A DNA stretch of 64,000 nt, from positions 70,928,001 to 70,992,000 of the forward strand of contig CM097885.1 in assembly GCA_044892525.1 (NCBI GenBank), in the 5' to 3' direction. This document shows positions 546-57,880 of the stretch, in pieces. Under the pieces are notes generated by a model. That model searched no databases, was not told where the DNA came from, and saw only the letters and a program-made list of their open reading frames with translations. Each line of letters begins with the position of its first letter. Within the stretch, counting starts at the first letter, position 1. The translations under genes and the position numbers were made by a program. Source of the stretch: Schmidtea polychroa (Eukaryota).

Positions 546-1204
546 TCATATCGCCCTCAGCTATTAGGGCGTTGACGTCCACCTGAAACTGAGTATCATT
601 GCACAACGGGACGCTTCCGTAGAAATTATGCGGAAATTCTTCTGTGGAGTGGATACGGTTATCCTTGGAGCTTGTTCTTTATGGGTTGGGCAGCGAATAG
701 GGATGCTTCTTGAACCGTGAACGCATCCCTTCGTTTTTGATTTTTCTGGGCCCACGATGGGCGCTTTCGTTTCTTGGCCGTCGAGACGAAAGAGATACTA
801 TTAGAACCGGATATCGATGCAGCGGCTGTGGTGGCGGTATCAGTAGATGCCTGGTGTAACTCTTTCGATCCGGATAGAATGAGATCCTTCAATGATGGAA
901 AATGATTTCCATGGCTGCTACAATCTGTCTTTGTTAGTGGAAATTCGTCTCCTCGGTGATGAACCGGTGATGAACCGTCTTTTATCGGATACTCACGCAT
1001 CCGTCGTTGAATCTCTGTCTCAGTGTAGACTTTATGCAAAGCTTTAGACTGAGCTTTTATCGTTAGCCGTTGGCATCGGCTTTCTTCTAGGAGGCTGTCT
1101 CGACAGTGCTTAGTCGCAATACCTTCGTTTTCTCCTCCTTCATTTGGGCAGGAGAGAATCATGTACATTCGTAATGCTCAATTCGTTTCTTCTGATATCG
1201 GCAT
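546..1204 (-). pseudogene. Decayed unidentified accessory ORF, copy A (downstream of a Gypsy-like integrase remnant)
   Basis: ATG at 1204, early TGA, open 1168-659, frameshifted tail QFQVDVNALIAEGDMI near 597-546. Shares motifs with fragments at 43.1-43.6 kb (KRKRPSWAQKNQKRRD..EASLF vs KWKRLTRAEKSKHKRD..EASLF) and 57.5-57.8 kb (HCRDSL/HYRDSL, ALHKVY/ALYQVY). Confidence 0.55.
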
Positions 1205-1689
1205 TTTTATCCGCGCAAGAGAAACAGGGTTGAAGTCCCTTCGGCGGCAGATTGGGCTCACACACTTCTGGAAAATGAAGTAGTTAAAAAAACTAAATCG
1301 ACATATTATGGTAGACAAGACTGGTCGCTGACCGTTCGGTGAATTTCAACCTTAGGGCTGTTCCCCTCCTCATACCGTCAATTTATTTTTATTAACAGAA
1401 TCAAACTCGTCATCATTATCTTGCTTGGATTTCGATTAAGGTGAAATTTGATCAACAGCTCTATTTTCAAAATATTTCCTCCAAATGTAAGTTATTAGGT
1501 AGACGGTTTAAAAAAACCAATTTTTATTGTCTTCATGTACTGAATGCGTTAATTGCCTGATTAAGAGAAATAGTTAGACCTAAATAATAATAACTAATTC
1601 TAGATTTTTCAAGTGAGATTCTAAGTTTAATTATTTCAATAGTAGATGTATTATTCGGTGACCATTTTTATTATTTATGCCAAGCGTTT

Positions 1690-3335
1690 CAATCTGCCGA
1701 TGTGTAATTGATTTTGGTAAATTCATCTCAGATCCTTGTCATTCGGCGACGTGTAAATATTTACGCTTTTCCAGTAGATTCTCTTAATTCCAGTTTACCG
1801 CGAGTGTTTACATTGACATATGATTATGGATAAACAAGTCTGGCGGGTTTAGTCGAATCGAGTGATCGTTGATTCAAATTTGTTTTTATTATCTCCTTCT
1901 TTGTTTAGTGAAAATCTCATTACCGTCGAGCGGTGGGATTCTACTAGCCGGATGTTTATCGGCGAAATTTAATCGTTGTCGTTTGTGAATGAAGCGTTGG
2001 CGATGATTCGCGAATTCAGAGATGCTATTGCCGATCGTGAGAAAACTGTAGATCTTAATCTACATCGAATTTTGACTATTACCGTTATCGTACTGTTACT
2101 AAACGTTGGAAATATTTCGGTCGTAAATTATGCAGATTCTCCGAGTCGATTGGAAAATGATTGTCTGGTCAAAGAAGTAAAGATGGATAATTCTCCGTAA
2201 TTCAGTGAAGGTGAACTCTAAAACTGCCTCGGACGCTACTCTATCGAACGGAATTTTTTTAGATCTCTTTGGAATTTGTCTAGTAGGAAAAAATCTGGAA
2301 TCATATGAGATTTGACAATGTTTAGAGTTACAAAATCTTTCGCGAAAACGACCTCTATTGCTTCTCGATGAAAACACTTGTCATTACACTCGGTGGATTA
2401 TATAGTCATGGTTTCTCCGCTTACCAGGACCACCCAGATACTACCGGTATCCCTACCGACTGTTCTCTAGATCAGTGCTACTCAAAGTGTGGTACGCGTA
2501 CCGGTGCCGGTACGCAAGCAATAGTCTGCCGGTACGCGAAGAGATTTTCAAAGGAAAATAAACAAATGTAAAATTACATGCCATGAGAAACAGGTGGGTC
2601 ATGTGACTGATATTTTTTGTTTATTTATCTAAAAAGAATACAGCATGGTAGTAATTTAATTGGAAACAGTTATTGTATGCACTTTATTAAAAGATTTGAC
2701 TGATATTTTACTCTATGTCACACATCTGAAGACTTGCATCTGAAGACTTGCATCTGAAGACTTGCATGACAATGATTAGTGATCTTAAATTGAATAAGAC
2801 TTCATGCCATCATGATTAGTCGTCGCTTTTTTTCCCATTTCCCTCTTGCGATAGCTAGATTGGCTAGTCGCACCCTGTCGAATAAAAAAAACATCTGCCG
2901 GTACGCCACATCAGAAAGTTTGAGAAGCACTGCTCTAGATTGTCCTGATAGACAGAGTTCACCGCATTTATGCTATCAATAATAATAAGGAAATATGAAA
3001 ATCGAAATATTATTATCAGATAAATGTTATGAAAAATAAATATTGTTACAGAACATTCAATGTGGTTATCAATTGTCTACTTTTAATGATTAAACAATAA
3101 ATGAAATAAATTTACTCGACAACCATGCCCTTTGAAATCCGAGTATGATGTCATAACTGATGTTACTATGGTAATCTTTAAGCCATTCCGGTGACTACTC
3201 TGAGTACGCAATTCATATCATCTCCCTTCACTGCATAAATCTGGCATTTTGAAGTCATGGCATAGTTGAAATTCATATCATAATTGTAAAGCCTAATATT
3301 TTGCATACACATCACACTCGGGGTTTGCAGACGGA
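1690..3335 (-). mobile_element. Heavily decayed Ty3/Gypsy pol remnant (protease-like and integrase-like pieces), interrupted by a hAT MITE
   Basis: Stop-ridden minus frames: ISYDIILG (aspartic protease end, about 3150), LLDKFQRDLK (resembles LVERFNRTLK, about 2280), NLRPKYF (about 2120). Similar to the remnant at 43.9-44.6 kb. Confidence 0.4.
2473..2932. mobile_element. Non-autonomous hAT (Buster-like) MITE, 460 bp
   Basis: TIRs cagtgctactcaaag / tttgagaagcactg; perfect 8-bp TSD ctctagat at 2465-2472 and 2933-2940; internal 14-bp repeat catctgaagacttg x3. Confidence 0.9.
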
Positions 3336-4528
3336 ATCGTCGCCGGTTCCGTGAAGGAGAAAGGCAGGTGGTTAATAAAATAATATTTTCATTATAACAT
3401 TTTTACAATTCTAAATATCATTACAATTCATGAAGATATAACAAATTTCATAAATAAAATTCAACTAAATTACTTGGAAATTCAACAATTAGTTGCTAGT
3501 GAACTGAGTAAATTCGGGGTCAAATACTCTTTTCTCGTTTAACAATTCAGTAAGTAGAGCTTCGATGAGATCTACGAATCCTTGAATTATGCTTGCTAAT
3601 ATAATAATGTGGAATAGTTCTATAAGCCTTATGTGGTTCAAATTTATCGATTATAATAGATTCCTGATAGATTTTTCCTTGAATTAGTGATTTCCGAAAT
3701 GGTTGCTTGGTTTGGTAGTAGTTGGTACCTAAATTGATTTTGAAGTAAATCTCTATATTAAAAGTCCTTACCTAAATTGATTTTGAAGTAGTTATCTAAC
3801 TGATTTAGCGGCCGTCTTATATAATAAATTTTAACCAATTAGAATTGAGTCGGGTTGTTTTTTGGTTATTTTTTCTTTATTCTTTATTTTCTATTGTTTT
3901 TCTTATGTATTATTTTGTTTTATTTAGTTTTATTATCTTTCTTGTAATTTTGCGTTATTTCGCCTATTTTTGTTGTCTTTGGGTGTGACGGCTTATTTCT
4001 AGTTTTTCTTCAAATTCTAATTAATTTTCGTACTTTTATATACGTTTTTCCTTATTTTGTTTGGGTTTCATTTTTGTTATTTCCTAAATTTTGTTATTAT
4101 TGCGTCCTTAATTTATTTGTTGCTAACTTAATTATTTTATTTGTTCTTCCTTTTTCTGTTTTTCCTCGTTTACCTCAGTTCACAGTCACTAACCGTTTAG
4201 CAATTATTTTTCCGTTTAGCCCAACACTACTTTGAAAAGAGACGCAACGCACTCGAATCTATTAATAATACCGTGGACCGCTAGAATAAGAAAAATTCAT
4301 GCGTCCCTTATCAATACGTATACTTACATATGAACATGCATAGCCAAACATAGCATAGACAAATATAAACAAATTTGAATTAAAGAAAAAATTGAGTTAA
4401 CAAAAAGGTAATTAAATTGCACCATAAAGGAAAGTTTTTACAAAAATTGTTTTAAGCATCAATAATTCATTAACATATTTAATAATACATTCAAATAAAA
4501 GTTAAATACATATTGCAATCCAATGTTT

Positions 4529-4900
4529 ATTATGAGAAATTAATCTTTCTTGCTTTTACTTTTGCGAATATTTAAATTAATCTATCGACTTCAAGATTAC
4601 CTGCAATTTCGTGCTCAATTGATATTATTGCCAAACCAGTCAATCTTTCTTGAGCTATGGTCGAACGAGTGCATGCCATTATCAATTTCAATTTTGAAAA
4701 ACTTCTTTCTGAACTGACAACTGATACTGACAATGTGGCGAATATGCGCAACGCGACAAATAAATTTGGAACAATGTTTTCTAATTTATGTTGGCATATA
4801 TGTGAGAGGACATCAATTGCTGAAGTATTTTCGAAGTTCGTCTTTCTATTACTTATAATTCGTTACTTAAATCTTGTGAGGTGTTTTCACTTGAGAATTA
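4529..4900 (-). pseudogene. hAT transposase C-terminal dimerisation-domain remnant (Tip100/ZMYM1-like)
   Basis: Minus frame reads VPNLFVALRIFATLSVSVVSSERSFSKLKLIMACTRSTIAQERLTGLAIISIE, with an in-frame stop near the end. Confidence 0.8.
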
Positions 4901-5242: not shown

Positions 5243-6438
5243 ATGGATTTCTTCATAAAAAAGCTATTCCCAAATGATTTTCATATAGGAGATGATGTTG
5301 AAACATTCATTAAAGAATGCAATAAATATTTTTAAATGTTACTACTAAAATGTACTAAAATGTCTACTGCAATACAAAAAGTGATGATCGAATTACTGAT
5401 CGACAAACAGAGCAGAGAGATATATACAGGAGTTGATCAAAATATCAAATGTTACAAGGAAAGATTGCGAAAGGCATTCGTCAAAAAACAAGTTTCGCAG
5501 AAGATTTACAATCTACTGTGTCTTATAGACAGACTAGTGAAGAGTCCGATAAATATTTTGCTATGATAGACGAGTTAGTCGATAAAATATTGAGGCATGA
5601 GTTAAACAAGGAAAGTTTAACCGAATATCTGCTGGTACACTGTGCAGCCGAGAAGACTTTGAAACGAGAATTGTGTCTAAGTGACACCAAAGAAACAACG
5701 GAAGTGAAGAAAAAAATCAAGAATTTACATGAATCTCGTATAGTTGCAGAAGAGATCTACGCACTGAGAGAAAGAAGACCAGAACAGAATATAACAAGAA
5801 ATTACAGAGACACGGTTACAAATCAAGCAAGAAATATTGTATCACCAAGATATAATAGCGAGTCGAGAGAGTATCGAGAAGAAAGACCGATCAGAAATAA
5901 AAACGAATGCTGGACATGTAACAAGGTAGAACATTTGAGTAGAGATTGCATAACAAAGAAGGCAGTTACATGTTTTACATGTCGAAGACAAGGACATGTA
6001 AGAAGTCAGTGTCCACAGATGCAGAGAAAGGTAGTAGAATGTTATGCGTGTGGTACCCCGGGACACGTGAGAAGAGATTGTAAAAAAATATGGTGTACGA
6101 GGTGTAGCTTGGGAGGTCATAAAGAGGCAGATTGTTACACAAATTTGGAGACAATGAGATATCGGAGAATCAATGAGAATTCTGGAAGACAACAAGAACG
6201 ATACGAAGCAGGGAATGGTTATCAAGGAACGAGAAAGGAAACAAGACAAGCAGACAAGAGATGCGTAGCATTCATAGACGAACCAAATGATGAAAGAATA
6301 GAAGATAAATACAGAGAATACCCAAATATCAACGCCGATAAAAGAGATATTTGGGGCAGTGTATTAAACAGTAATGCTGACTCCCAAATTATTAATTATT
6401 ATACCTTCTGTTCATCAAAAATTAATTCGGTTAAGTAA
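5243..6438 (+). pseudogene. Ty3/Gypsy Gag with four CCHC-type zinc knuckles; premature stop and frameshift, no pol downstream
   Basis: CWTCNKVEHLSRDC, CFTCRRQGHVRSQC, CYACGTPGHVRRDC, CTRCSLGGHKEADC. The post-knuckle segment RCVAFIDE..EDKY resembles RIACIEED..EDRY of the gag at 63.7-64.0 kb. Confidence 0.8.
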
Positions 6439-7073
6439 AATAACTTTAATAAATTTTTCTTATCAATAACAATCCACATTTGTCCAACCCGAGCGAATAT
6501 AAAGGTCCAATTCCTCACACTTACACTCAAATTCTTCTAAATTAAGATGGTGAAGTCCCCATAATATTTTTGTCAGAAGACAAGGATAACTACACAGGTT
6601 GACTAATGATAAAAGATAATTTTTTGATCGAGTATCGGTGGTAGTGAATCTCCAATTTTTATTTTAATAGCGACAACATGGTTTTTTAACACAAAATATC
6701 CTTACGTATGGGATAATTTTCGGGTTAATGATCTAAGAATGCGACGATAAAGTAAATGTTATGTCAATGATGCGAGTTCTCCTCTGCGCGGGGGTGGGGG
6801 TAATTTGGTTTAGTATGCGTTCGTCATGATTTCTGTGAGTATTCAAGTGGAAAGCCAATCGCTCGGTCAAACGTTCTAAATCTGTTTATTATCAATGTGA
6901 TAATGCTGGTTCTTCTTTCTTTCTTTGTAGAAAATGTACAATCTCCCTTCTACGTCAGCGGCACTCAAGCCTTGTTTCTCCTGTGCCGACAAGAATTCGA
7001 TAATTAAAACTCTTCAAGCTCAGATCGGACTACTAAAGAAGACCATAGAGGTACATGGTTTTTCCCTTGTCAG

Positions 7074-7616
7074 ATGAAAGATATGAGAACGAAACTCTTC
7101 AGGGTGGAACACTACCTAGATAGCCTCATTGAAGATTGCTCGTCAAAGAACAATCAGGAGCACTATATAAAGTATCGGTGCAAGCAACTCTCACCAAAAA
7201 TATTGCAACCGTGCCTATCATTCGCTGATGTCGCCGATGTCGTGGTCAAATTAAACAGATACCCATGCCACACGCAGGCTGTGGAGATGTGCATCAAGGT
7301 GGTGACTGAGGCATCGCAGTCTGTGTGTGGTGAGAAACGACGAGACGGTTTTATCCGTACAAGACTGGAGTCTAGGGCAAAAATTCCCGTTTTCGACACA
7401 AAACGGGACTTCAATATGTGACAGTCATATCGACTCATTTGAATGTGTGTGTTTTTATTGAGACAATATATGTTAACACTGTGCCAAAACTGCCTAAAAA
7501 TGTTTCGGATAATATAGAAGCAAATTGTATCACTATTTTTCAGAATATTATAATTAAACATTTTCGGTAAAAAATGTCCAAATATTGTCATTTTCATCGC
7601 TCGTGGGGGAGCCTAA
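7074..7616 (+). mobile_element. 3' end of a DDE DNA transposon (hATm-like transposase C-terminus, candidate TIR)
   Basis: YPCHTQAVEMCIKVVTEASQSVCGEKRRDGFIR motif, typical of CHTQAVER-family transposases; candidate terminus gtgggggagcctaa near 7603-7616. Confidence 0.55.
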
Positions 7617-8689
7617 GATATCAACTTATCAAGTTGAACTTTTAATATCTTTTAGATGACAACACTCCACGTCTTTTCATTGCTATTCCTAGTAAAAACT
7701 CTCAAAATGATTTTATTTCTCACTTTTCACTCCACCCTATTGTCTAGATCTAATGTACCGTTAATTTATGGTAAAATTTATTGTCTACTTTAATTTAATA
7801 TTACTATTTATATTTATTTTATTTTTTAAAATTACTATAATAAGTATATGGTCTATATATAGTAATTGATTATACTATTTATATTTATAATACATTTTAG
7901 GTAATTATATAATTAATTATTTATACTATTATTATAATTATGCTATTTTTAGTAATATTTATTTATTTTACTTATTATTTTACCCTAATTAACCCTTATG
8001 GCTATTGTTTTCTCGAATCCAAACCCAACAATACTTTGGCTGCTTTACCGAGTCGGAATTTTTCTAAAAAAATTTACAAACCTTAAAATACTTTGACTTT
8101 CTAACGAGACCTTTGCTTTTAATTGCTTTTTTAACAAGAATCGGATTTTGTTTACAAAAAATCTCTGGAGTCATAATCATCCCCTAGCTATAGTTGTGAT
8201 TTTGAAAAGATATCCTGTAGCCCTCTGCAGAAATGGAAGAATCCTATTACCCTTCTGCAACACTTAGGGGATACACGGGATGGTCGTGCTGCAGAGGTAC
8301 ACTGATTACCTACTTAGTATCTGTAGATGAGTCCGACTGAACTGAAGGAAAATGGAAAAATAATAAAGTATAATAAATTGAAACAGATATTAAATAAATC
8401 GAAATTATACTTTAATAATTTAAATAATTTATATTCCATAATTAAATAATATTCTAATCACGATATGTAATATTTTTGTTTATATACATTTAATGCATTA
8501 TTTATGTAGTTACTGTTTAATTAGAAATTAACATCATAAAAATTAAGGAAACATTTTTACATATTGATTTTAAATGTTTTAAAAAGTTTCTTATGATTTC
8601 AAATGAATTATTTTTCAAATATTTTGTATTGAATTAGTGATTAACAATTTTGGTTAATTTAATGTAAATTATTTTGCAATTTAGATCGA

Positions 8690-10215
8690 ATGTCGACTAT
8701 AAATGAAAAATTGAATAAAATTTCCCAGTTGCTTTCAGAGCACAAATTTACAATTGTCAGTGATATAGCTGAGGATTACAAATGTGGAATTTGCAAAGGA
8801 ATTATCAACAATGCCCATCAAATAATATGCGGATGTAATTTTTGTATGGAATGTATTAATCAATATATTGGCAATGGCGGGGCTAAATGTCCAGCATGCC
8901 AATATGAAAATGTATTAGAGATTTCAAAAAATCACAAATTGAACATACAAATTTCTACAATTACCGTGAGATGTCCAAATAAAAATTGTGATCATGAATG
9001 CAAGCTCACAGAAATGGACGAGCATTTGAGATTATGCTCAAAAAGAAATGTGGAATGCCCGTTTGGTGGTATTGGCTGTCAGTTGAAGGAGATGAGCAAG
9101 GATAAATTGAATGAGCATTCCATCTCTAATATTGACAATCACAATAAAATCTTAATTGAAATGATCGGAGAATTGAGAAATGAAATGAATGAGCTAAAGA
9201 TAAATGATATGAGAAAAGATGAAGCAATTGAATCATTAAGAAATGAAATCAATGCGATAAAGGTAAATCAAATATCTGATTGATTTATTAATAACTGGCA
9301 TAATTCAGCAAGAAAATCAAGAGCTGAAAACCATAATGAGAAATAGCAATAATAATTTGTGGATCAAATTGGATCAGATGGATATCGAGATAAATGACAG
9401 GTGCAGAAATGATACGGTCACATCGATAAATGAGCAAATTGAATCTGTGAGAGAAATTAATTGATTGAATTGATCTGATCAATTGATTTATAAATATTCA
9501 GATCAATCAATTGAAATTGGAACAGCAAATGAAAATTGTCGACAGAAAATGCCAAGTGAGAATTGAGAGCATTTGATTATTGTTGATGATAAATTGATCT
9601 CAGGAATTGAATGGAAATGTGCAAATCATTCACCAGGTGAAGGCTGACAGTGATAGGATGGCGATGGAAATGCAGGAAATGAAGGGGGAAAGGGATAAAC
9701 TGACACGGGAAATGCAGGAAATGAAGGGGGAAAGGGATAAACTGACACGGGAAATGCAGGAAATGAAGGGGGAAAGGGATAAACTGACAAGGGAAATAGA
9801 GCGAATCAATAAATTCCTGAAAATGCGGCATAATGGGGAGTTGGTGTTGCTAATCGGTAAAATCAATGAAATGCAATTCATGTGCAGTGATGCATTCTAC
9901 GATTTCCAGAATCCATATGAAATGCATTTGGTGCTGACTAATGCAGCTGATAAATTGAATATTCAGTTTTTGATTAATTCTGCTGCATTTGATGATGATT
10001 TGCAATGGCCAGTGAAGGCAAAAATAAATATTAATATTTCATCATTAAATAATCTCAAACAATCAAAATCATTGACACAATCACTGACAATCAAAAAACC
10101 AGCAAATAAATCATATGAACGAAGTGATGCATTATCAATTGCCCATGCAGATCTGAATGCATTACAAATGCTTGATAATATTTGTATAATTGATTGTTAT
10201 GTTGAATTTGAATAA
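8690..10215 (+). CDS. TRAF-family E3 ligase/adaptor (RING, TRAF zinc finger, coiled coil, MATH), about 458 aa; exons 8690-9262, 9309-9446, 9502-9555, 9604-10215
   Basis: RING CGICKGIINNAHQIICGCNFCMEC..CPAC; zinc finger CPNKNC..EHLRLC..CPF..GC; MATH-like CSDAFY..FDDDLQWP. Three phase-0 GT-AG introns (46, 55, 48 nt) join the frames without stops. Confidence 0.88.
9667..9792 (+). repeat. Coding 42-bp tandem repeat x3 (EMQEMKGERDKLTR)
   Basis: Three near-identical units in TRAF exon 4; one mismatch in the third. Confidence 0.95.
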
Positions 10216-10879
10216 ATTTTGCCTGATTTCCATTTACCTTTCGGTTCGACTCTTGCAGGAAATCATAAATATAAATAACTAGCTAATTAATCCGCCTCCG
10301 CTCGCGATTCCAAACCGCATATAATAGTAATTCAAAATATTTAAAAATTGTTTTAATCGAACTATTTTTGGTTAGTTACATTTTTAGGCGGGCGTTGAGG
10401 ATAAGAGAGCAAAATTTGCGAAATAATATGAATTGTCTGGAGCCCATTGCAAAAATAATGTTACAGAAATGTTTACCTGTTAGTTTTTATTCCCATTAAA
10501 ATTTTATAAATTGACTTTTCATGTTTACTATTCACGTGCTTATTTTGATATTCTGAATTTGTTGCACACAATTTCATTACTTTGATTTTTGATGTAGAGT
10601 GCATAGGAGGGAGTTAGTTATCTGAATATTTATTTGGGAGGGAAAATAAGGTATTATTTTGGATCATTCCTAAAGTAGGGTAGTTTTTTCATCGAGTTCT
10701 AAAAAAAATAACGAACCCTAATGAAACTAATATTACCAATTGGTGGGTTATCTTTGGGGAGTCTTTCATTATTGTATGTTTCTCTATCCGATACTTTTGC
10801 CATGTTTCACTTTCCCCTAGCAAACATGCATAATTATTTTATTCGGCCGCTAAAAGCCCATCGCAAGCGACGTTAATGC

Positions 10880-10990
10880 TGCAATTTAGCGGTTGGCTGT
10901 CGGGAAAAGGTGAGCTCTACCATAATAGCTGCCACTGACCCAACGAGCCCTGGGTTCATGAGCTACTGTAGAAGGTTTAGCGCTCCATTT
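10880..10990 (-). pseudogene. Short fragment of the unidentified accessory-ORF family (copy F)
   Basis: ggtgagctctac (10909) and gggttcatgagctactgtagaagg (10952) match motifs and their 61-65 nt spacing at 19.73, 42.81 and 57.46 kb. Confidence 0.45.
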
Positions 10991-11029
10991 TTTATTGTGA
11001 TTGATTTTTTTTTAATTTGCTCTCATCTC

Positions 11030-17271: not shown

Positions 17272-19038
<1,767 letters not shown>

Positions 19039-19679
19039 CATTAGATCAATCCTGATCAATAGAATGCATTTACAAAAAACTATATATGGGATAGTCGCAG
19101 CAGACACTTTACCACTTTTTATCTATCTAAACATTTTCTCACTATTTTATAAATCTTCACGGACAATTTTTTACTGATCTAAAAATTTTGTTTACTATTC
19201 TATAAACCTCAAGGGTTAACTTTTCTTAAAGAACTCTAACAATTTCAACCAACTTCAATTCAATCTTATTTAAATCGTTATCGACTAAATCCATTCGGTA
19301 CTAAATTTTGGAATCTGTAGTTTTATTGAAATCTTTGGAACAATATTTTGGTAATTTTTATTTATTATTGTCATGTTTAAACATCGGATTCGTTGTAATG
19401 TAGTTTATTCATTAAAATCTTATTGGTAAAACCTGATAATGATTTGGATTTTATAAATTTTGCAGAGCGACAAGGCAGGTACTGAACAGTACATTAGTTC
19501 ATTTGCTAATATTATAAGATTAAGGCTGAGATTGTGACCATCGACAATCTAACATGATCATCTCCCAGTTGGCGCTTAGGGGTGTGTCGTTTTAAATGTT
19601 TTAGGGGTACTTAGAAATTTTAAATAAACGTCTTCCTAATTGCCTTCATGATTATTGTACTTTAGACCATCTGTGTACC

Positions 19680-19900
19680 CATTGCGTCAACCATGTTGGT
19701 GTTGTACACAACGGCTGGAAATCCATGAGCTGGTGAGCTCTACTGCTAAAACTACTCCTCAGGATATTTTCATTTTCGGGTTCTGGACTACCGATATAAG
19801 GTCTTACGTCATCGTTCATTTTCTAGTTCTTTCTTAGATTATTGTCGTTTATTTAGTAAATTATGGTCCTCATTTTTGGATGTTCTTTTCCAAAATTTTG
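19680..19900 (-). pseudogene. Fragment of the unidentified accessory-ORF family (copy D)
   Basis: accatgttggt..ggtgagctc..aactact shared with 42.76-42.83 kb; gttctggacta.cg.ta.aaggtctta.gtc shared with 57.51 kb. Confidence 0.55.
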
Positions 19901-20945
19901 CGCAGGGATCCGCCCTTATTTCCAAGTTAATATATTTCGTTCTTGACTTTCTGCAATTCTGGAGGATATTCGACTCATTCTTTGAAAAATTTAGCAGGAT
20001 CTGCCTATATTTTTAATCCTGGTCCATTTGATATCATAACTACGCGTGGATTCTATAATATTAGTCAAACCTACACTTTCTCTATTTACAATCGATCTTA
20101 CTTTTCCTATTTCTAACTTAACTCACTAAAATTCATTAAAATGCATCAACGATTAATTACGATATCTTTGTGCTACTTATGCCCTACTAAAAATACTTAC
20201 AGCGACGGACTCGCAGGAGACCCTCCACCCCGAGGTCCGATCAACTGAAATGATTGAAGACTCCTGCTGTCCCACCGGTAGAAAGACATGACACTCGAAG
20301 GTCGAATTCAAATTTAACTTTATATATTTAAATAACTATATTTGACCTTAAATCAGGGTAGGCTAACATTTTTCATCATTCATCACACTTTTACAAGATA
20401 TAATTATTTTTTAATGGTCGGAGTAATTTAAACATTCTAATTATATCAATAAACAAACATTTTTCACTTTATTATCGGTAATATAGTAGACAAAAATTAT
20501 AATACGCTTGCAAAATTGACCAAACATGAAGCACGCTTAAACATAAAGGTCAATAACCTCTAGCACCAATTACGATCTGCAAAAGCTAAGTGAAAGAATG
20601 GCAAAACAAATATGACACTTGTATAATAAATATTTTTTAATGATTTCATTTATGTTTATATATTTTTTATATCTATTATATTATCTATGTTTACATGTAA
20701 GAATAATATTAAACACAATAATAACAACTCATTATGTTTCAACTTTTCACTCCAAAAAATGTCGGAAAACCATACCTGATCGTATTATAAATAAAATCTT
20801 ATTTATTTATTTAAAAAATTATTAATCGTTAAATAATTATTAAATAAATATTAATACGATTAAAAATGATAAATTGGTTGGAGAAAGTTACATAAATGTA
20901 TTTATTTTTCATTTAATTTATATAAAAATAATCCTGTATTTTATT

Positions 20946-26038: not shown

Positions 26039-26115
<77 letters not shown>

Positions 26116-39732: not shown

Positions 39733-40074
39733 AATATGAATACAATTTAAAATATAAGTTAAGAAAAATTGATATTTGAAATATAAGAAAATTTAAACAA
39801 AAGACAATAAAATATAGCCATTATTATTTTGGTTATTTCAAATGTTTAGTTGTATTAATAGCATTTCTAAAATTCGACTTTTTTGTTTTTAGTTAAAGGT
39901 TTAATAATAATTGCAAAGTAAACAAATTTCTTTGTGATTCACTATCGATTGGTTATTAATAATCTATTATTAATGTGTCTAACAAATTGCGAATGATAAC
40001 TATGACTCGAATGAAAACATTTAAAAAAATTTTAATTTATTCATTTCAACACAATTAGACAAAAGTTTGTTCTA

Positions 40075-41993: not shown

Positions 41994-42744
41994 TTCAAAA
42001 ATATTTAAATATATATTCAATTATAATTATTAAATAACAATAGATTTTAATAAAAATGACTTTAAAATTAATAAAGAAATATATATATATTAAAACAAAT
42101 ATTTTATCAATAATATTGTGTGGTTTGAAATGTAAAGATATAGATTCTTTTTGTTTGTCCTACTATAGCAAAGAGATTATTTTGTAATGAAACAGAAAAC
42201 GAACCTAACCCAGAGTCTTATCAGGCCATTAGCAATTATTGTGATGGGGCTCACCTTTTGCTGACAGCCACCCGCTAAACCACAGTACCAACGTCGTTTA
42301 CGATGGGCGTTTAGTGGTCAAATAAAATAATTATGCGCGATTGCTAAGGGGACGCAAATAGAATGAAAGAGATGGGCAAAAGTTTAAAAAAGTGAATGAG
42401 TTTCCCCATTCGTAACTCACCAACATACTCCAAATACAGACATGTCATTCTCAAACTTTTGGATAACTTTGAGTTTCTGTTGAAGTGTTATCATTGCTTG
42501 TTTTCTCTTATCCATATTTTTAAAGGTTTAATTGAATTAAATATAATATTTATTGGAAGTATAAAGTGATGATTCATTGGTAGCAGTATTTAATATTTAA
42601 AATAATAAAGTGATATTTTAAGCATTGTAGGTCGCCTAAGAGTATGTCATGTTCAAAAAACAAGAACGAGCAGTGATAGGGGTAAATGTGGTTGCCTCAA
42701 CCTGACTCCTTCTGAGACGCCAATGTGACTATTGTTTTAACTAC

Positions 42745-42900
42745 TCATGTGCCCGGGGCGACGACCATGTTGGTACTGCACATAGTAGCTGAGGACCTAT
42801 GGACAGGTGAGCTCCTACGGTAGAACTACTCTCCATAACCTCCTCGTCTACGGGTCCATTAGTGCCGATAGAAGGCCAACATTCTGGTGAATAAAGACAT
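42745..42900 (-). pseudogene. Fragment of the unidentified accessory-ORF family (copy E)
   Basis: DNA match to 19.69-19.81 kb; LCAVPTW vs LCTTPTW. Confidence 0.55.
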
Positions 42901-43069
42901 TGATCACACTTTAAATAATTCAACAACCCTGGTCCGAGGGGTAATATTAATTGAATTAAATTCACCATTCCTCATATCTACCTATACATCAGAAAAGAAG
43001 ATAACAAGCAAAAATTCCATTTAAAACACTGATACATTTATTGCCACCATTCCGTTACAAATCAGCTCC

Positions 43070-44600: not shown

Positions 44601-44623
44601 TAATCATACAATATACTCTACTT

Positions 44624-48685: not shown

Positions 48686-51600
48686 ATGAAATCTTCTTTA
48701 TCAGAACAAAATAGACAATCAAAAAATAAAAAATCCCAATGCAATAGTAGTAAATCATCCAAATTCATTGAAAAAGAAAGTATAAGTGGTTTCTCTTTAA
48801 CTTTCTCAAATATACCTACAAGTTTATGTGATTTTATTCCTAAAGACCAAGATAATTTGTCTTATGAAATTGATTTTGAAATAGCTAAAAATTTACGAAA
48901 ATTGGAGAAAAAGGATGCCTTAACAAAGCTGAAATCATTAAATGATTTAATACAAATTTTTAATAACAAAGATGAAGCTTCGGTTATTTCAACATTAAAA
49001 TTCTGGCCCAAGTTATATAATAAATTATCTCTAGATGAAGATAAAAAGGTCCGAGAACAAACTCAACAGTTGATGGGTATGTATGCTCAGATATGTGGAA
49101 AAGAAATATCATCAGTTATTAAACAGTTGCTTCCAACGTGGATAATTTCTCAATCTGATTTGCATCTTCCAGCAGCAAATTTAGCGAAAGAGACTTTTGT
49201 TAAAACATTTTCAACAAAAATTAAACAAGAAAAGGCTTATTTACTGTGCTGGCATTCTATTTATGAGATAATATCAGCTAATTTATGTAAAAATCCTCCA
49301 AATATTAAATCAGAAAGTGGAGATTTTACAACACAAGAAGAAGCATATATACAAGATACTGTTGTTAATATGAGGACAATTATAACATTACTACCATTCT
49401 TGAGAGGTAACGATGAATCTGTAAAAGATTTAGTAACATTATTAAAATCAAAGCAATTTTGGTTGCATTCAAAGCAGAATATCAGTCTAATTCAGTCGGC
49501 ATATTTACAATTGGGGACAGATCTGTTAGATAATTTACCGGATCTTGTGATAGCAACACGATTCATTGCGTCAAACATCTGTGAATGTTATCGCTTGATC
49601 GATAACTATCACCCGCACCTGATTTCCAGAATCTGGACGAGTATTGTCAAATGTGGCGAACATCTACCTCAGGATGAAATCTGGAAATTCGTTAGTTTTA
49701 AATCATTCTTTCTTCCAAAATTTATAAAGTTACTGGAATGTGCAGCCGACGGTCATCTTTCACATATCTATTGCTGCATGTTACCGTTGTTCACTCAGTT
49801 ACCAATCGATCCAATGTCAGAGGAATCCAGTGTAATCTATGAGCAAATATTTACCGCCATGATTCGCGGTTCTGACACCAGCCGTGTCATGAATAATGAG
49901 CGAGAATCGAATTGCACTGTCCAAATGATATTCGAATGCTCCACATATATTATCATTGTCACTGGAAACAGAGCGGGCTCAACAATTGCCAACAAGTTCG
50001 TTGACAGTGTCATGTCGTTTACTTATCTCCGGTTCGCTGATCCAAAATTTAGAAAATCCACAAAAATTGTCTCTAATTTTGTCCATTGCTTTATTAAACC
50101 TCTCATCGTAAAAGATAGCATTAACGCAAAACAAATTATAGATTCGATTGCTCGTTGGATAGATTCTGATCATGACGAAAACGATCGATTCTGTGAAAGG
50201 ATAACCGAATTATTACTCGAACTCAATCAGTCAAACTATAAGCCCGTCAAATTGTTCCATGATAATATGTTAACACAGATTGAACCTATTCTCAAATTGA
50301 AAATAATGCACCAGCATCAATGCCTAGTACCATACTTTTATGCCTGTCACGCCATGCCCTCAGTTCATATTGATCCAGATCAAGCAGATATGATCTTGAT
50401 CAATTGCGGACATTTAATGCAAACATACAATCCGGATGTAATTCGTATCATCAGTCATGGAATCAGCCGCATCATTTCAAATAGTCATCATTCATTAATC
50501 AATAATTTTATTCAATCACTTTCCGATGATCAATTGAATAGTTTTTATATGAAATTCTATCGAGATATCATTTCCAATATCACGGATGCAGAAATAGTTT
50601 CTCAAATGGCATCGATATCTTTATCGATTTGGATAGGTATAATCGATAAATTGATCGAAAAATTATTGAACCAACATAACGATCCGATCACTAATTTATC
50701 CTGGCAATCGATATTTGACCTATGCCATGAATTACCTGCTCATGCCAATGATGATTCCATCATCATTTCTCATCTCAACTCCATCATCGAATCAACAATG
50801 GACAAATATATTTCCGCTGAAACTATTGATCGCCTTATTTCATTGATGAAGAATTGTATTATAAAACTTGATTCAGAATCTCGCCTCGAATTATTATCAT
50901 CATCATTTGCACGAAATTTATTAAAATTAATACTCTGTAATTCTTCCACGCTGGAATTGACCAATCACAATGATTTACAGCCGATCTTGACTTATGTCAA
51001 ACATTGTCAACCCGATAAGGCATTACAATTGTCAGTTGAGTTGATTAATGAGGCAATTTGCGCTCAAAATTGCTCTCAATTATCATTGGTCAGTCATTTC
51101 ATTCAATCAATAATCCAGTGTTCACCGAGTGATGAAATTCGCCAACAATTGACAGATAACATTTCCGCCCAGCTTGTCGATGATATGGTTTCAATCGATT
51201 CCGAGACGGCCAAACAAATCCAGTATTCTCCTGTTCCAGTTCACACAATGCATGAAAGCATTATCGGAATAATCCACAAAATCAATGTCATTCAGTCTAT
51301 TCCATCATCATCGATTGTCATTCAATCTCTATCTCCTGTCATCAATTCAGTATCGATACTCATCAATACCATATTATTGAACACATTCTCCAGTTGTCAC
51401 AATTCGAATTATCTCCTTGGTAAATGTGATAAAGTTTTCAAATCAGTCAATAATCTCGACATTTCCTACTATCAAGATCAGTTGCTTCAATCAGCAATGG
51501 GTTTAGCCTGTGAATTGGATGTTTTCAATCGTTGTCCGACTTTAGTGCTTAATTCTCTCTCCCAGCTTATACCTTCGAATTATTCGCTATGGACAGTTTC

Positions 51601-54600
51601 AATTCGTGATGCAGTTGATATGGCCATTAACAATTGGGCTGACAGTGAGTTGACTAACTCACAATTGATTCTCTTCATTCGTGTTCTGTTTCCGTGTGCC
51701 GTTAAAGCCAGATATATTGTCCAAGAGATAATACTTGCATCACTTGCATCCTATGTCAGTGAGGATACCAATCCTACTATAGGAAGCTGTAATCGTGCAT
51801 TTTCTATCATGGCTTGTCTTGTACGTGCTGATTCCAGCTATTTCCATCTTTGTTTCCCTTTAATAATGATCATGAAACCAATTTTTGAATTTTATATTGA
51901 TGAACTTCGTCCGGCTTGTTTTGATCAATCCTTACTTTCCTGTGACGTAGATTACTTTTCATTGGTCAACCTGCTTGAATTTCTATCAATTGGTATTGAT
52001 TCCAACAGCATCCTGTCACAAAGTGAATGGGAATTTGTATTCTGTCTCATTGATATTCTGATCAGAAGCCGAGCTTTTTCAGACGTTGGGAATTTTCGTT
52101 CTGATCCAATCACTTCTGACAAATTTGATCACATTCTCAATGCTTATTGGCTGCTGAAATTAGTTTCATCCACAACTGTTGCGCTCGCATCGGTAAAATT
52201 CGATTCCGTTATCGATGAATGGGATAATTGCTTTAGTGAATCGATATTTACAGCTATTCTCGACCAGTTTTCCCTGTATGCAGGTGACCACACAATCGGA
52301 AAGTTGATCCATGCAGATCTGTTCGTGTTCTATCTCGAATCACTTTCAGATGCAGTTTCTCTTTGTCCGGTTAATATCCTTCTTTCTCACAATTTCAACG
52401 GCCATATCAATATCAATGATCCTGTAGATTTACCGAAAGACTTTTTAATAGTTTTCAACAGTCTCCTGGAGTCAATGTCAAATTATTCTTTATCGATACA
52501 ATTGGCGGCATATAATTGCCTACTTAATCTTACTGAGAAATTATCTGAGCTTTTATTTGAACAAGTAAATGCAGCGGAGAAAATTGAAACTCTTGAATCG
52601 TTTACTATCAATTTGCCAACTAAATTACTTGAATACATGAATGTCGACGATATTGATCAGCACAACATTGATAAAACAGAAAATCAAATTATTCTCATCC
52701 GATGTTTTCTAACCTGGAATATTGTATTACAGTTATTTTCTGGTGCTCATTCAAAACTCCGCGCGGAAATCAGTACGTTTTTAACTCAAAACGATAGATG
52801 TTTCGATAAATTTCTTAATTTCTGCTTCACTCTGATGCCTAAAAATCCGATTGTTTGTAAGAAAGCGTTCTCATTTATTGACGCTAATAATTCCTGTAAT
52901 CTAATATCGGAAGAACCAAAAATCTTCTCACAGTGCACAGAAAAGCGATCGAAATTCATAATTTATCATCTGTCGGCTTATATATTTCGACGCTGCATGC
53001 AAGTTTTACCGAATCTTTGCCGGAATTGGTGGCGGTCACTCGATGCCAATTCACAACAATTGGTTGACAGTTATGTTCGTTTGTATTTGACTCGCGAATT
53101 GTTCAAGATCGAATTCGCTCAATTGAAAGAAATTGTCGACAAAGAATTCGATGAAAAATTGGAAATTAAAGCCATTCCGTTGATTGGGGAAGTGACAGTG
53201 AAATATAATCTTTCGTATGATCAGAGCTTAGAACAGCTTATTGCATTACCGAACAACTATCCAATTGGGAACATTCGTGTCGAATTCAAGAAGGAAATGA
53301 CTGTCAAAATTCAGCATTGGAAAAATTGGGTTGGACAAATGGCAATGTCCGTTGAAAATCAAGTAACATGTTCATTATACATTAATATATTAAAATTTGA
53401 TTTTAAGCATAGTAATCAATATTATGTTATTGATTTTAATTCTAAAATTCATTATACAATGAAAAACAATGTATCTTTCAGTTTTTAATTTAAAATTCAA
53501 GATGCTTAGTGGGCGCGTACTAACTTTAAAACTATATAAATCTACTCTGAATTAACTTATGAAGTAAATGACGCTAAGGAATTCTGGTTTTTAATTAAAA
53601 TTTGTATAATATTGATCAGCATTAATTAACCGAGAGCTACAGAATATTTCGGAGGATGCCAAATAAAATCTTATTTTTTGATAAGTGGCGGAAGGGAACA
53701 GTACTGCCAAAATTAAAAAAAATATGAAAAACAATTAAAATTCTATATATAAATTATGACAAAAATATAAATTCGCAGACATATTATGTTTAAATAGCAT
53801 AAATATATTAAAAATTATATCGATATTGATATCGTATAATAAATTATGTTTGAATAATAATAATAATTCTATTTTATACAAATGAAGAAGTTAATTAAAA
53901 TAGAAAAACGTAGATTTAATTATATAAAGGAACATCTATTGAGGGCGTCCCTCTTTTCCAGTATCCCTTTATATAATTCCAGGAGCCTACATGTCTCCTT
54001 AGGTGACCTCCTTAACGGATGCTCATTAAGTACTGTATATCTGAATTCAATCACATTTTCTTAGGTATGTATTATAACTACTTAAATCAATATTGAGTAA
54101 TGTGGTACTCAGTTCTCTCCGCTGTGCATCCAGGGACACAACATGATGCAATAAAATCTAAAATGTTGATTAAAAAGTGTGGGGCATCCAGAGCCGTGGC
54201 GTCCGTGGCGAGATTGAAATTTGGCGCACCTGGTGCCAAAAGAACCCACAACTCCAATTAATTATGTACTTACAGGAATGGAATTGATCTTGAAGAGTCA
54301 AATTAAGATGCAAAGCTATACAATGCTTAACCAAACTTATATTATAACGAAAACCAATTAATTATAAATATTTATTATACATGTGCATATACATTAATAT
54401 TGAAAATTTATTTACTCCTTATTTATTAAACCTAAGTTCAGAGTTTTGATCATTAAGTTCCTATTAAGGTTACTATTATAATATATTTGAAAAGATCAAG
54501 TGATCAACTTTTACATTTAACATTGAATTCTAAATAAAAGAAATTAAAGATAAATTAAATTAAAGATTATTATCAATTGTGCTTCCTTCTTTCCAACGAT

Positions 54601-56604
54601 TTTCAAGATCTTTCCAGGCTAAGTAGCATTTTCTATGCTCAAAACTGTTTTCATGATCAGTCACCTTCGGATTTAGTCGCCCGTTTGCAAAAACCTTTAG
54701 ATCGACCAGCAAAACAGTTTTGTTTTAGTTTAACTTTTGAAAACAGTAAACATGGAAAGCAGAATATAAAAATTTAATATGAATAAAAGAAAGAAAAGCA
54801 AAAAAAATTTAAATGATCATTTCACAGTTTTGGCGCATTTCGACTCGGCGCCCGGGGTAGTCACCTCATTCGCCACCCCCTAGCTACGGCTCTGGGGCCA
54901 TCGAATGAAAAGGGTTAAGAAAAACTGATTTGGATGTTCAAAACAAATTTATCGGGTTTGATAAATGCATAGAATGCATACACTAAACAGTTATTTTACT
55001 AGATATTGATACAAATAATACGTGAGTTTTATTAATTCAATAATTAGCATCCTAACCCTTTGCCGCATTAAAAAATATCTAAATTTTTGAAAAATTTTTT
55101 TATAAGAACTATATTTTCCAATTTCACTACTGATTTTTCCCCCATTCTTTTTATTAAAGAGTTTGAAGACTATAAATCAATAAAATATCGATGTTCTTGA
55201 TATATTACTGATTTATAGTCTTCAAGCTCTTTTTAATAAATCAAAAAAAGATTTTGCAATTATTATTTTAATTGACCATAATATTGCTGTTTAATGTAAT
55301 AATCAATCCAATAATTTATTAATTTCTCTGCAAAAATATTTTATAATCTGATGCAATGTTATAATAAAAAATTAGTTAAATTATAATTTTTTAATAAAAT
55401 TTTGGGAAAAAGTAAAAAATCATTAAAGGAAATGGAACTACATTTTGAAAATAATCCAAATATTCAGTTATTACGAAGATAATTAATATTTTTTCCGAAT
55501 AATTCTATTATTATTTTAATTGACCATAATATTGCTATTTAATTTAATAATCAATCCAATAATTTATTAATTTCTCGGCAAAAATATTTAAAAATTTTTA
55601 TAGCTATTTATATTTCTTAAATAAATGTAATAAGACTAAAATAATGACTGAGAAAAATAAATAAATATTTACAAACACTGTTCATAAAATATATATAATA
55701 AAACATACACAATCGGACGTTAAATAAGAGTTTTGACGTCTAACCTGATGCAAATTTTATAATAAAATTTTGGGGGAAAAATCACTGGGCAGGATTAAAG
55801 GAAATGGAACTACATTTTTGAAAATAATCCAAATATTCAGTTATTACGAAGATATTACATATTTTTTGCGAATAATTCTATTATTATTTTAATTGACCAT
55901 AATATTGCTATTTAATTTATTAATTTCTCGGCCAAAATATTAAAAATTTTTATAGCTATTTATATTTCTTAAATAAATGTAATAAGACTGAAAAAATTAC
56001 TGAGGAAAATAAATAAATATTTACAAACACTGTTCATAAAATGTATACAATAAAACACACACAATCGGACGTTAAATAAGAGTTTTGACGTCTAACCTGA
56101 TGCAAATTTTATAATAAAATTTTGGGAAAAATAAAAAAATCACTGGGCAGGATTAAAGGAAATGGAGCTACATTTTGAAAATATTTCAAATATTCAGTTT
56201 TTAATTCCATTATAAATTCTAAAAAATATTTTTAAAAATTCTTAATAAATTATAAACAGGAAAATTAATTACGAAATTGGTTAAAAAGTACTATTATCCT
56301 GCGACTTCGATATTTCTTTGAAATTTGCATTAATAACAATAAATTTCAGAATGGATCGATATTTGATGGGGTCAAATTGTGGAAGAAAAACCTTGACAAC
56401 TATTTCAATGGAATAGAAGAATGTATGATTTGTTATTCAATAATCCACGCCACAAAATATACTGTGCCATCACAGTCGTGTTACCAGTGCAGGAAGAAAT
56501 TCCACAAAGATTGTCTACAGAAATGGTTTCATTCCAGCACGAATCCGACTTGTCCCAATTGCAGAAATATGTTTTATGATGGAAGCCAAAAATCGATTAA
56601 ATAA
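48686..56604 (+). CDS. LTN1: E3 ubiquitin ligase Listerin, about 1643 aa; exons 48686-53362 and 56350-56604
   Basis: N-terminal LRKLEKKDALTKLKSL and FWPKLYNKLSLDEDKKVRE; RWD-like LPNNYPIG; RING ECMICYSIIH..CYQCRKKFHKDCLQKWFHSSTNPTCPNCR. Phase-0 intron caa|gtaaca..tttcag|aat gives ENQ|NGS. Confidence 0.95.
54189..54894. mobile_element. Non-autonomous hAT MITE in the LTN1 intron, apparently nested in a piggyBac-type end (aagggTTAA near 54910-54918)
   Basis: TIR cagagccgtggc / gctacggctctg; flanks ggggcatc / gggccatc (7/8). Confidence 0.8.
55250..56200. repeat. Intronic tandem triplication of a 250-370 bp AT-rich unit
   Basis: aattgaccataatattgct near 55270, 55519 and 55891; ggaaatggaactacatttt near 55428, 55801 and 56158. 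Confidence 0.85.
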
Positions 56605-57454
56605 AAAAATATTACTTATTTCTTATATTTATTGGTGAATAATTGATTTTTGTTTACTTTTATTTTTTCATTCATTTTTTTAATAATTTTTTTTGTTATT
56701 TTGCTGCTGGCCAATGAAAACACTGTTGCTGCATAATCGGCTTTTCATGGAATATTATATAAATTTTGCTTTTTATGAATCGCGTTATATATCTATAAGT
56801 TGGGGTAAGATTAAGGTTGAATTTTGATCAAAGCAATTATAATGTAAAAGAAAAAGCAAATAATTAATGAGAAAATTTTTGAGCTGAATCGTGCGATTAT
56901 TAATTAACTTTAACGAATGTAAGTAATCTGCTCAGACCAAACTAAATAACAAGGAAAAAAATTAATAAAACAAGTTATACAAATATAAACAACACAAAAA
57001 ATAAAACAATATAACATAAGAAAATCCAAGCAGTTGGACACGTTAAAAACATTAAATCACGGGTAAAGGACACGAAACAGCAGGAAAATATTATCTTATC
57101 CAAGGGGGTATAAAAGATAGTTCAATCAATCAGAGAAATAGGAAAAATAGAATAAAATAAAATAATTAAAAACAAAATTAAACTAGCCAAATGATTGGAA
57201 TTTAAATCGAAAATTGATCAAAAGTGATCAAACCTGATTGGTTGAGCCAACATACAAAATAATATATAAGCCGACGTTTTGACAGATCAATACCACTTTT
57301 CAAATCTTAAAAATACCTTTTGTCGGCGTTTAGGTCGATGTGAAATAGAAATGGCAGTTGTTGCCTAAGTATTTGAATACGCATGATTTTAAAACTCCGA
57401 TCAGCTGCCCATGACGATTATTATGTTGATCCTGCATACTGTCGGTGAAAAATA

Positions 57455-57880
57455 AAGAGCAGGTGAGCCACTGCCTTATTACTATTCCCTTTTTGTTTCG
57501 TGGGAGTTCTGGACTAACGTTAGAAGGTCTTATGTCCCCAGATCACTATCGCTTATTCAATATAACGACAGTGTCTCCATTCATGGTCTTATGCCGTGAG
57601 ACTCGAGTAGCCAGCTCTTTTGCCATGTAGACTTGGTACAGTGCTCCTGTACCTGAGCTCATTGCGCCCGATTTTCGGTTATGAGACTGTCTCGATAGTG
57701 CTCAAAGCGGAATAACTGCTTGTTCTTCTTTTTCATCTAGAGGGGATAAACCACCTCCCCTCAAGATGGTCTACTCTCGGAGAAGCCGATTCTCCTCTTT
57801 CAATTGGTGTTGGCAGCATTTTTATCTGCGCACGAATAACACAGCTTAAGCATGTTGGATTTTGATGCCATACTGTCTGT
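57455..57880 (-). pseudogene. Accessory-ORF family copy C with upstream splice acceptor
   Basis: tttcacag at 57877; gcgcagataaaaATG at 57819, matching gcgcggataaaaATG at 1204; HYRDSLITE and GALYQVYMAKEL motifs; stops and a frameshift. Confidence 0.6.

What the first reader, a model, noticed from the sequence alone, without database searches (positions are those of the whole stretch)
546..57880. Unrecognised accessory ORF family linked to Gypsy-like integrase remnants (at least 6 fragments)
Seen in sequence: minus-strand fragments at about 0.55-1.2, 10.9, 19.7-19.9, 42.75-42.9, 43.07-43.6 and 57.45-57.82 kb are linked by shared motifs. A and C share the gcgc.gataaaaATG start, H[CY]RDSL..E and AL[HY][KQ]VY. 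A and B share a basic K[RW]KR..W/R..K..KR[RD] patch, EASLF and Q[FL][QE].DV..L[IL].E. C, D, E and F share ggtgagc...gttc.g..cta...tagaagg at 61-65 nt spacing. In A and B the ORF lies about 0.3-1.1 kb downstream of an integrase-like remnant on the same strand. Inference: a Ty3/Gypsy lineage carrying an extra ORF3. It is basic (NLS-like) and shows no signal peptide or TM helix, so it does not look like a classical env. I cannot assign it to a known family.
Basis: partly seen in the sequence, partly recalled or inferred. Interest (0 to 1): 0.7.

Follow-up and report, generated by a model that had tools for sequence, protein, structure and literature searches.

The report
Orphan gene inside giant retrotransposon LTR
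The fragments are decayed terminal repeats of a known giant virus-like jumping element, and each intact repeat carries a strongly conserved gene with no known relatives whose protein likely regulates the element's own RNA.

Summary
The family is real, but it is not an ORF3 behind integrase. The pieces are decayed long terminal repeats (LTRs) of Burro-type giant Gypsy elements. A ~250-aa ORF lies inside the 3.3-4.3 kb LTR: both LTRs of 4 of 4 full-length elements carry it, as do solo LTRs. It is under strong purifying selection (dN/dS 0.12; 0.04 in the N-terminal coiled coil) and sits behind a conserved splice acceptor (21 of 23 subfamilies; control 20 of 548). It has no match in Pfam, two large protein collections, PDB or viral folds. 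The 'ATG' is off-frame, and no integrase lies upstream. The 19.6-20.0 kb piece belongs to a non-autonomous family whose short LTR lacks the ORF but keeps promoter and tail, suggesting the protein acts in trans. A Rev-like RNA regulator is my likeliest reading (about 40%); expression and binding are untested. This scan noted the same family before on other DNA. The two primary Burro papers were not available.

The parts
370..4226 (-). Decayed LTR copy A: starts TGTTGGGC at 4226; similarity to relatives stops at about 370, so the 3' tail and hairpin are missing
   Evidence: 82-91% identical to L002-L005, L010, L053-L055
3767..3840 (-). Predicted LTR promoter and first exon: CCAAT-like box 3840, TATA 3823, initiator-like TCAGT 3803, splice donor AG/GTAAG 3773
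   Evidence: aligned with 13 other LTRs; positions; function inferred
2473..2933 (.). Short hAT-like inverted-repeat insertion inside LTR A (label from terminal repeats, recalled)
   Evidence: absent from relatives; CAGTG/CACTG ends
544..1268 (-). Broken LTR ORF of copy A, behind a pyrimidine-tract/AG acceptor at about 1268; start codon lost, several frameshifts and one stop
   Evidence: 67-75% aa identity to L004 and L006
6934..7219 (+).
   Evidence: iE 3e-13; 58-69% identity to clade-2 copies
10738..10998 (-). Non-coding remnant of a divergent tail-motif family; link to the ORF not shown
   Evidence: no significant ORF profile hit in the 11 related loci scanned
19575..20016 (-). 3' part of the short, ORF-less LTR of a non-autonomous family, with hairpin and LTR end
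   Evidence: 70-77% identical to L163, L167, L168
42625..47819 (-). Decayed LTR copy B, interrupted by a hAT transposon at about 44625-47125; promoter motifs near 47551
   Evidence: collinear with L133, L138, L077
43156..43595 (-). 3' half of the LTR ORF in copy B (basic patch and C-terminal motif); N-terminal half not detected
   Evidence: iE 2e-12
42650..42942 (-). Non-coding LTR tail of copy B with the covarying hairpin at about 42797-42839
57320..58250 (-). Decayed LTR copy: acceptor and ATG at 57871, broken N-terminal ORF 57644-57871, about 600 bp deleted near 57560, tail 57332-57587
   Evidence: its relative L131 continues into the primer-binding site and RING ORF
42206..42423 (+). Second remnant of the divergent tail family
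   Evidence: E 2e-44 to the profile of that family
149..372 (+). Third remnant with the tail motif, abutting the truncated end of copy A
   Evidence: E 1e-6; 84% identical to L170

Best explanation
The fragments are decayed LTRs of Burro-type giant Gypsy retroelements, whose 3.3-4.3 kb LTR contains a conserved ~250-aa accessory gene that is likely expressed by splicing from the LTR promoter and likely acts in trans, Rev-like, on the element's own RNA. Shown: position inside both LTRs and solo LTRs, purifying selection, conserved promoter, donor and acceptor motifs, a covarying hairpin in the LTR tail, and a derivative family without the ORF. Inferred: transcription starts about 400-560 bp into the LTR; a 1.5-2.5 kb intron is removed to bring a short non-coding leader onto the ATG; the protein oligomerises through its N-terminal coiled coil, enters the nucleus through the K/R patch, binds the tail hairpin, and helps the intron-retaining genomic RNA escape splicing or early polyadenylation and leave the nucleus.
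For: Anatomy (about 0.95): of 20 tiles around intact ORFs, 13 are solo LTRs with TG..CA ends and 4-5 bp target duplications, 5 are 5' LTRs followed by a primer-binding site, 2 unresolved. 4 of 4 full-length elements (24-38 kb, LTRs 99.7-99.9% identical) hold the ORF in both LTRs. The internal region encodes RING, gag with zinc knuckles, fusion glycoprotein, protease, RT, RNase H, integrase, ankyrin and RING/TRAF-MATH, matching Burro (PMC6431247 section 7). Selection: omega 0.121 on 23 subfamily representatives, lnL -11468 versus -12562 with omega fixed at 1; 0.10-0.17 in each of three clades; 0.044 for residues 10-115 and 0.118 for the basic region. Splicing signals: acceptor within 10 nt of the ATG in 21 of 23 representatives and 56 of 58 copies, against 20 of 548 control ATGs; its distance varies (mostly 0, 1, 2 or 9 nt), so the leader is non-coding. 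A CCAAT-like box is present in all 14 aligned LTRs, TATA in most, and an AG/GTAA donor in about 10. Protein: predicted helices 15-42, 49-101 and 182-213; 9-11 K/R in a 20-residue patch in 21 of 23 representatives. RNA: 9 of 15 hairpin pairs show two-sided changes, 96% of cells pair against 30-55% when slid. Trans action: 0 of 7 short-LTR places hold the ORF, 5 of 7 keep the tail motif, and the family has 366 LTR/primer-site junction matches.
Against: No transcript, splice junction, start site or poly(A) site was seen. No protein-RNA binding was tested. No sequence or fold similarity to Rev-family or any other proteins. The hairpin lies 150-300 bp from the primer-binding site, where a packaging or primer-activation structure is the ordinary explanation, and non-autonomous elements would keep that too. 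The most conserved part is the coiled coil, not the basic patch. The patch is lysine-rich in two clades, like a plain nuclear localisation signal. AATAAA/ATTAAA after the stop occurs in 45 of 58 copies but had no control in this AT-rich DNA. No LTR of window copy A's clade was found joined to an internal region. Intact copies were chosen for dN/dS.
Confidence: 0.42

Rival explanations
1. Same LTR gene, but a transcriptional transactivator: a dimeric coiled coil, a basic DNA- or chromatin-binding helix and an acidic-aromatic C-terminal activation motif that boosts the LTR promoter (Tas- or Tat-like).
For: Conserved acidic-hydrophobic C-terminus in 22 of 23 representatives, omega 0.113 for residues 206-253. 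The basic patch runs into a predicted helix, 182-213. Promoter motifs are kept in ORF-less LTRs.
Against: The helix after the basic patch is not conserved in clade 2. No bZIP or other DNA-binding family hit; the Atlas bZIP row scored 0.78, within chance.
Confidence: 0.25
2. Same LTR gene, but host-directed: it counters piRNA or chromatin silencing, or modulates apoptosis or ubiquitin pathways, like the other cargo of Burro. Solo LTRs would then supply it genome-wide.
For: The element carries RING, TRAF-MATH and ankyrin cargo. BURRO1 is repressed by SMEDWI-2 (PMC8532177, passages) and a Burro1 IAP region is reported to protect stem cells (second-hand, PMC13465017 passages). Omega within two young clusters that are mostly solo LTRs is 0.21 and 0.45.
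Against: No similarity to host proteins. Sub-1 omega within clusters is also expected from selection during replication of the source elements. All four coding remnants in this window are broken.
Confidence: 0.2
3. A structural or nucleic-acid-chaperone helper of the particle, needed to copy the unusually long (about 3.7 kb) minus-strand strong-stop DNA.
For: If transcription starts at about +500, R plus U5 is 3-3.7 kb. The family with a short LTR lacks the ORF. Basic patch and conserved Cys/His residues.
Against: Gag already has zinc knuckles. A separately spliced message suits a regulator better.
Confidence: 0.08
4. One reading: an ORF3 in the internal region just downstream of integrase.
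For: In a full-length element the 3' LTR, and so one copy of the ORF, does lie downstream of integrase, though more than 10 kb away.
Against: No integrase upstream of the window copies. The ORF is bounded by LTR ends and target duplications.
Confidence: 0.02

Closest known systems
Burro / GYPSM1 giant Gypsy-like LTR elements of planarians (PMC6431247, section 7 read whole)
   Same: About 30 kb, long LTRs, one huge polyprotein with gag zinc knuckles, env-like fusion protein between gag and protease, RT, RNase H, integrase, ankyrin and MATH/TRAF, plus accessory ORFs.
   Different: That text mentions accessory ORFs but no gene inside the LTR. Its Fig. 2A and the primary papers (Grohme 2018; Lee 2026, PMC13047482) could not be seen. 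No reference Burro sequence was available for direct alignment. In the copy scanned, MATH lies in a separate ORF downstream of the polyprotein.
MMTV sag/naf ORF in the LTR (PMC9412291, passages)
   Same: A protein-coding ORF lying within the LTR, so present at both ends of the provirus.
   Different: Sag lies in U3, upstream of the main start, and is a superantigen. This ORF lies downstream of the predicted TATA box, behind an intron inside the LTR, and has no membrane segment or sequence similarity.
Rev-like proteins with structured response elements: HIV Rev/RRE, HTLV Rex, MMTV Rem (PMC3856414, passages)
   Same: Small, basic, predicted to multimerise, predicted to come from a spliced message, next to a conserved structured RNA.
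   Different: No sequence or fold match. Larger, with an 85-residue coiled coil and a CxxC motif. Export signal and RNA binding untested. Those proteins belong to vertebrate retroviruses, not Gypsy elements.
Ogre elements of plants (PMC6431247, section 7)
   Same: Very long LTRs and extra ORFs of unknown function.
   Different: Ogre's extra ORFs are described in the internal region; here the ORF is part of the LTR.

Membership tests
LTR of a Ty3/Gypsy element | TG..CA termini with 4-5 bp target-site duplication | tested here: met
   13 of 20 tiles are solo LTRs with duplication; window copies are truncated and showed no paired duplication
LTR of a Ty3/Gypsy element | Direct repeats flanking gag-pol, primer-binding site after the 5' LTR, purine-rich tract before the 3' LTR | tested here: met
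   4 of 4 full-length elements; 768 tract/LTR junction matches genome-wide
LTR of a Ty3/Gypsy element | Order protease-RT-RNase H-integrase | tested here: met
   Pfam positions 2012, 2325, 2546-2571, 2783 in L041, one element scanned
Burro / GYPSM1 | About 30 kb with env-like fusion protein in frame between gag and protease | tested here: met
   PF24664 at 1483-1822, E 2e-70; lengths 24-38 kb
Burro / GYPSM1 | Ankyrin, MATH/TRAF and RING cargo | tested here: met
Burro / GYPSM1 | BIR and BCL2-like motifs | tested here: inconclusive
   no Pfam hit for either in the ORFs scanned at E<=0.05; not all internal ORFs were scanned
Burro / GYPSM1 | Sequence identity to the named Burro-1 to -4 references | not testable with these tools
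   no repeat library held
Envelope (ORF3) protein | Signal peptide, membrane helix, fusion-protein similarity, position after integrase | tested here: not met
   highest 19-residue hydropathy 0.9-1.1 in 3 copies; no Pfam hit; inside the LTR
Rev-like export regulators | Arginine-rich basic motif | tested here: inconclusive
   4-8 R and 2-6 K in 20 residues; R-rich in clade 2, K/R-mixed in the others
Rev-like export regulators | Structured cis element in the intron-retaining RNA | tested here: inconclusive
   covarying hairpin exists, no Rfam match; its role and presence in transcripts are untested
Rev-like export regulators | Sequence or fold homology | tested here: not met
Rev-like export regulators | CRM1-dependent export signal, RNA binding, multimerisation | not testable with these tools

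The most novel reading that the evidence does not exclude
Burro LTRs are self-contained gene units (promoter, intron, ORF, poly(A)) encoding the first Rev/RRE-type protein-RNA switch of a Gypsy element, evolved independently of retroviruses. Hundreds to thousands of solo LTRs and a large ORF-less dependent family would make it a genome-wide trans-acting system in planarian cells.
Probability: 0.3. Interest if true: 0.8.

Novelty: new variant of a known kind. Interest (0 to 1): 0.5.

Why it matters
Solo LTRs are normally treated as non-coding debris. Here they retain a complete gene conserved across at least 23 subfamilies (31-88% aa identity), in an element family that is abundant and reported to affect planarian stem cells. 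If the protein regulates the element's RNA, complex-retrovirus-style regulation arose in a Gypsy lineage as well. It also gives a concrete RNAi and CLIP target, and warns that reads and gene models from these LTRs may be misassigned.

Tried and rejected
Homology: 0 hits among 573 candidates in the 5.8-billion-protein set, near lengths only; 0 with a 17-sequence profile against 1.84 billion representatives; no Pfam family at its cut-off for 17 copies; Atlas first hits 0.85 and 0.88, leads only; no Foldseek match at E<=0.001 in PDB or viral structures, from a model with pTM 0.33; one weak PDB sequence hit at E 0.065, taken as chance; nothing in viral contigs. These libraries cover flatworm repeats poorly, so absence is not proof of novelty. 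Origin from the element's internal ORFs: best iE 0.53 over 10 ORFs, rejected. Conserved antisense ORF in the LTR: none shared between subfamilies. Rfam: 0 matches in two loci. Expression: no RNA holder listed. Contigs of two runs guessed to be RNA covered conserved LTR blocks only and showed no leader-to-ORF joint; a poly(A)-like loose end falls on an A-rich genomic stretch and was discarded. Remainder of copy A's 3' end left of the window: not found in 10 kb. One search's pattern was too narrow to count LTRs. Literature: searches listed no paper describing an ORF in the Burro LTR. Grohme 2018 and Lee 2026 were not held. PMC13524379 has no planarian passage in its main text (supplements not read). 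PMC11410931 and PMC13238120 passages only name Burro.
Full report
OBSERVATION. The shared frame reads P-C-F-S-C-A-D-K-N, so the proposed ATG is an off-frame reading of those codons. Profiles built from natural copies elsewhere in the genome place four coding remnants (544-1262, 6934-7219, 43156-43595, 57644-57868) and three LTR-tail remnants (42650-42942, 57332-57587, 19632-19814); ten shuffled windows gave no tail hit. The stretches upstream of the first and third coding remnants have no Pfam hit in 12 frames and no integrase similarity. They are LTR DNA shared with other copies.

WHAT IT IS. The 172-aa window piece returned the maximum of 150 scored matches from 3900 candidates in the 781-Mb genome, many with open frames of about 253 codons. 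A divergent copy returned 150 from 6302 candidates, many in pairs about 26 kb apart. Among 20 tiles, similarity ended sharply at TGTTGG and CCAACA: 13 are solo LTRs with 4-5 bp duplications, 5 continue into a primer-binding site, 2 are unresolved. The ORF ends about 490-555 bp before the LTR end. Four full-length elements carry it in both LTRs. The internal region of the one scanned encodes RING, gag, a fusion glycoprotein before the protease, RT, RNase H, integrase, ankyrin and RING/TRAF-MATH. This matches the Burro description, so the host is probably a planarian (inference from anatomy and genome shape). Relatives of the 43 kb and 57 kb window copies are joined to the same primer site and RING ORF, the former also to gag (L169, L131). 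For the clade of copy A no such junction was found; its link rests on shared ends, promoter, tail and the ORF tree.

THE GENE. From the loci held, 71 ORFs passed a motif and length filter, giving 58 distinct sequences in 23 clusters at 88% identity. Broken copies were left out. Omega is 0.121 overall, 0.044 for residues 10-115, 0.298 for the linker, 0.118 for the basic region and 0.113 for the C-terminus. Fixing omega at 1 costs 1094 log-likelihood units, and third codon positions vary about twice as much as first or second. The tree shows two deep clades and a subclade holding copy A's relatives. AlphaFold predicts long helices at 15-42 and 49-101 (pLDDT about 85-90), a disordered linker and a helix at 182-213. 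C14, C17, H63, C64, H87, H114, H115 and C125 are invariant in 23 of 23; zinc binding is a guess. No search found a relative.

EXPRESSION SIGNALS (inferred, no RNA seen). About 400-560 bp into the LTR, 14 aligned copies share a CCAAT-like box; most also have TATA, an initiator-like motif and a donor. A pyrimidine tract and AG lie within 10 nt of the ATG in 21 of 23 representatives, against 20 of 548 nearby ATGs. The variable distance implies a non-coding leader. AATAAA or ATTAAA follows the stop in 45 of 58 copies, without a control. The simplest reading is a short U3, a 3-kb R region holding intron and gene, and a 0.3-kb U5. A second, unseen promoter near the LTR end is not excluded.

TAIL MOTIF. 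In 20 sequences, 9 of 15 pairs change on both sides and 96% of cells pair. Slid controls give 30-55%; the count of covarying pairs alone is not beyond the shuffles (43 of 500), while paired cells and the covariation score are (0 of 500). The sequences are related and the structure was derived from them, so this supports but does not prove selection. Rfam has no match. The pieces at 10.7-11.0 kb, 42.2-42.4 kb and 149-372 form a more divergent family, weakly hit by the tail profile in 3 of 7 independent relatives (E 4e-5 to 3e-3) and without an ORF upstream.

ORF-LESS FAMILY. The 19.6-20.0 kb piece matches 1.5-1.75 kb LTRs with the same ends, primer site and upstream tract, CCAAT and TATA. 0 of 7 places have the ORF and 5 of 7 have the tail motif. 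In two internal regions examined only a gag-like ORF was found, in a third nothing. The junction pattern has 366 matches, of which I examined 7. The ORF is therefore dispensable in cis. This fits a trans-acting factor but does not say which kind.

MECHANISM. An element whose LTR contains an intron and a likely poly(A) signal must still produce a full-length unspliced RNA, the problem that Rev-like proteins solve in complex retroviruses. A spliced, basic, coiled-coil protein beside a conserved hairpin fits that role. I put it at 0.42, a transactivator at 0.25, a host-directed factor at 0.2 and a particle helper at 0.08. Before consulting earlier notes my reading was an unspecified nuclear regulator; the Rev framing came from note e1-9240899, is not independent support, and I tested only its sequence-level parts.

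COMPARISON AND VERDICT. The element is a known kind. An LTR-internal ORF has a precedent in MMTV sag, though in U3. In what I could read (PMC6431247 section 7 whole; passages of PMC8532177, PMC13465017, PMC11410931, PMC13238120, PMC13524379, PMC3856414, PMC9412291) this ORF is not described, but the two primary Burro papers and all figures were unavailable, so prior notice is quite possible. This scan has noted the same gene family on other DNA. The window itself holds only dead copies. New variant of a known kind; interest 0.5.

Noticed in passing
L163:3308-4951, L164:7231-8874, L167, L168; window 19575-20016: High-copy non-autonomous relative with a 1.5-1.75 kb ORF-less LTR and a gag-like internal ORF; some copies form tandem arrays at about 13.6 kb spacing sharing LTRs.
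   Followed up: partly
L171:8181-9933 (also L014): Two members of the ORF family lie in tandem 270 bp apart; could be a two-gene LTR or nested insertion.
   Followed up: no
L034 about 2107-2180 and other LTRs in alignment A2: The predicted first exon is repeated directly about 25 nt after the splice donor in most subfamilies; also noted earlier as e1-8146218.
   Followed up: no
window 8663-11009: RING-TRAF-like ORFs (label by eye) together with the 10.9 kb tail remnant form a block repeated at 91-97% identity at several places on the same contig.
   Followed up: partly
window 44625-47125: hAT-type DNA transposon (label recalled) with a 621-codon open frame, terminal inverted repeats and an 8-bp duplication, inserted in LTR copy B.
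   Followed up: partly
window 60582-63763 (-) and 5437-6438 (+): A separate ordinary Gypsy pol with integrase, and a gag zinc-knuckle remnant; unrelated to the LTR ORF.
   Followed up: partly
window 7250-7421 (+) and 11016-12034 (+): C-terminal remnant of a hAT-like transposase fused behind the 6.9 kb ORF remnant, and piggyBac-like transposase pieces (labels recalled, not tested).
   Followed up: no
window 20943-21864: Tandem array with a period of about 57-58 bp.
   Followed up: no
window 24091-39792 (-), 48686-56604 (+), 22149-22863 (-): Host genes that look like PDS5, listerin and a mitochondrial ribosomal protein (by eye, not tested); several LTR remnants lie between or beside them.
   Followed up: no
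L042:5077-7622: Three further unannotated ORFs (223-328 codons) between TRAF-MATH and the 3' LTR of the full-length element, with no Pfam family at cut-off.
   Followed up: no
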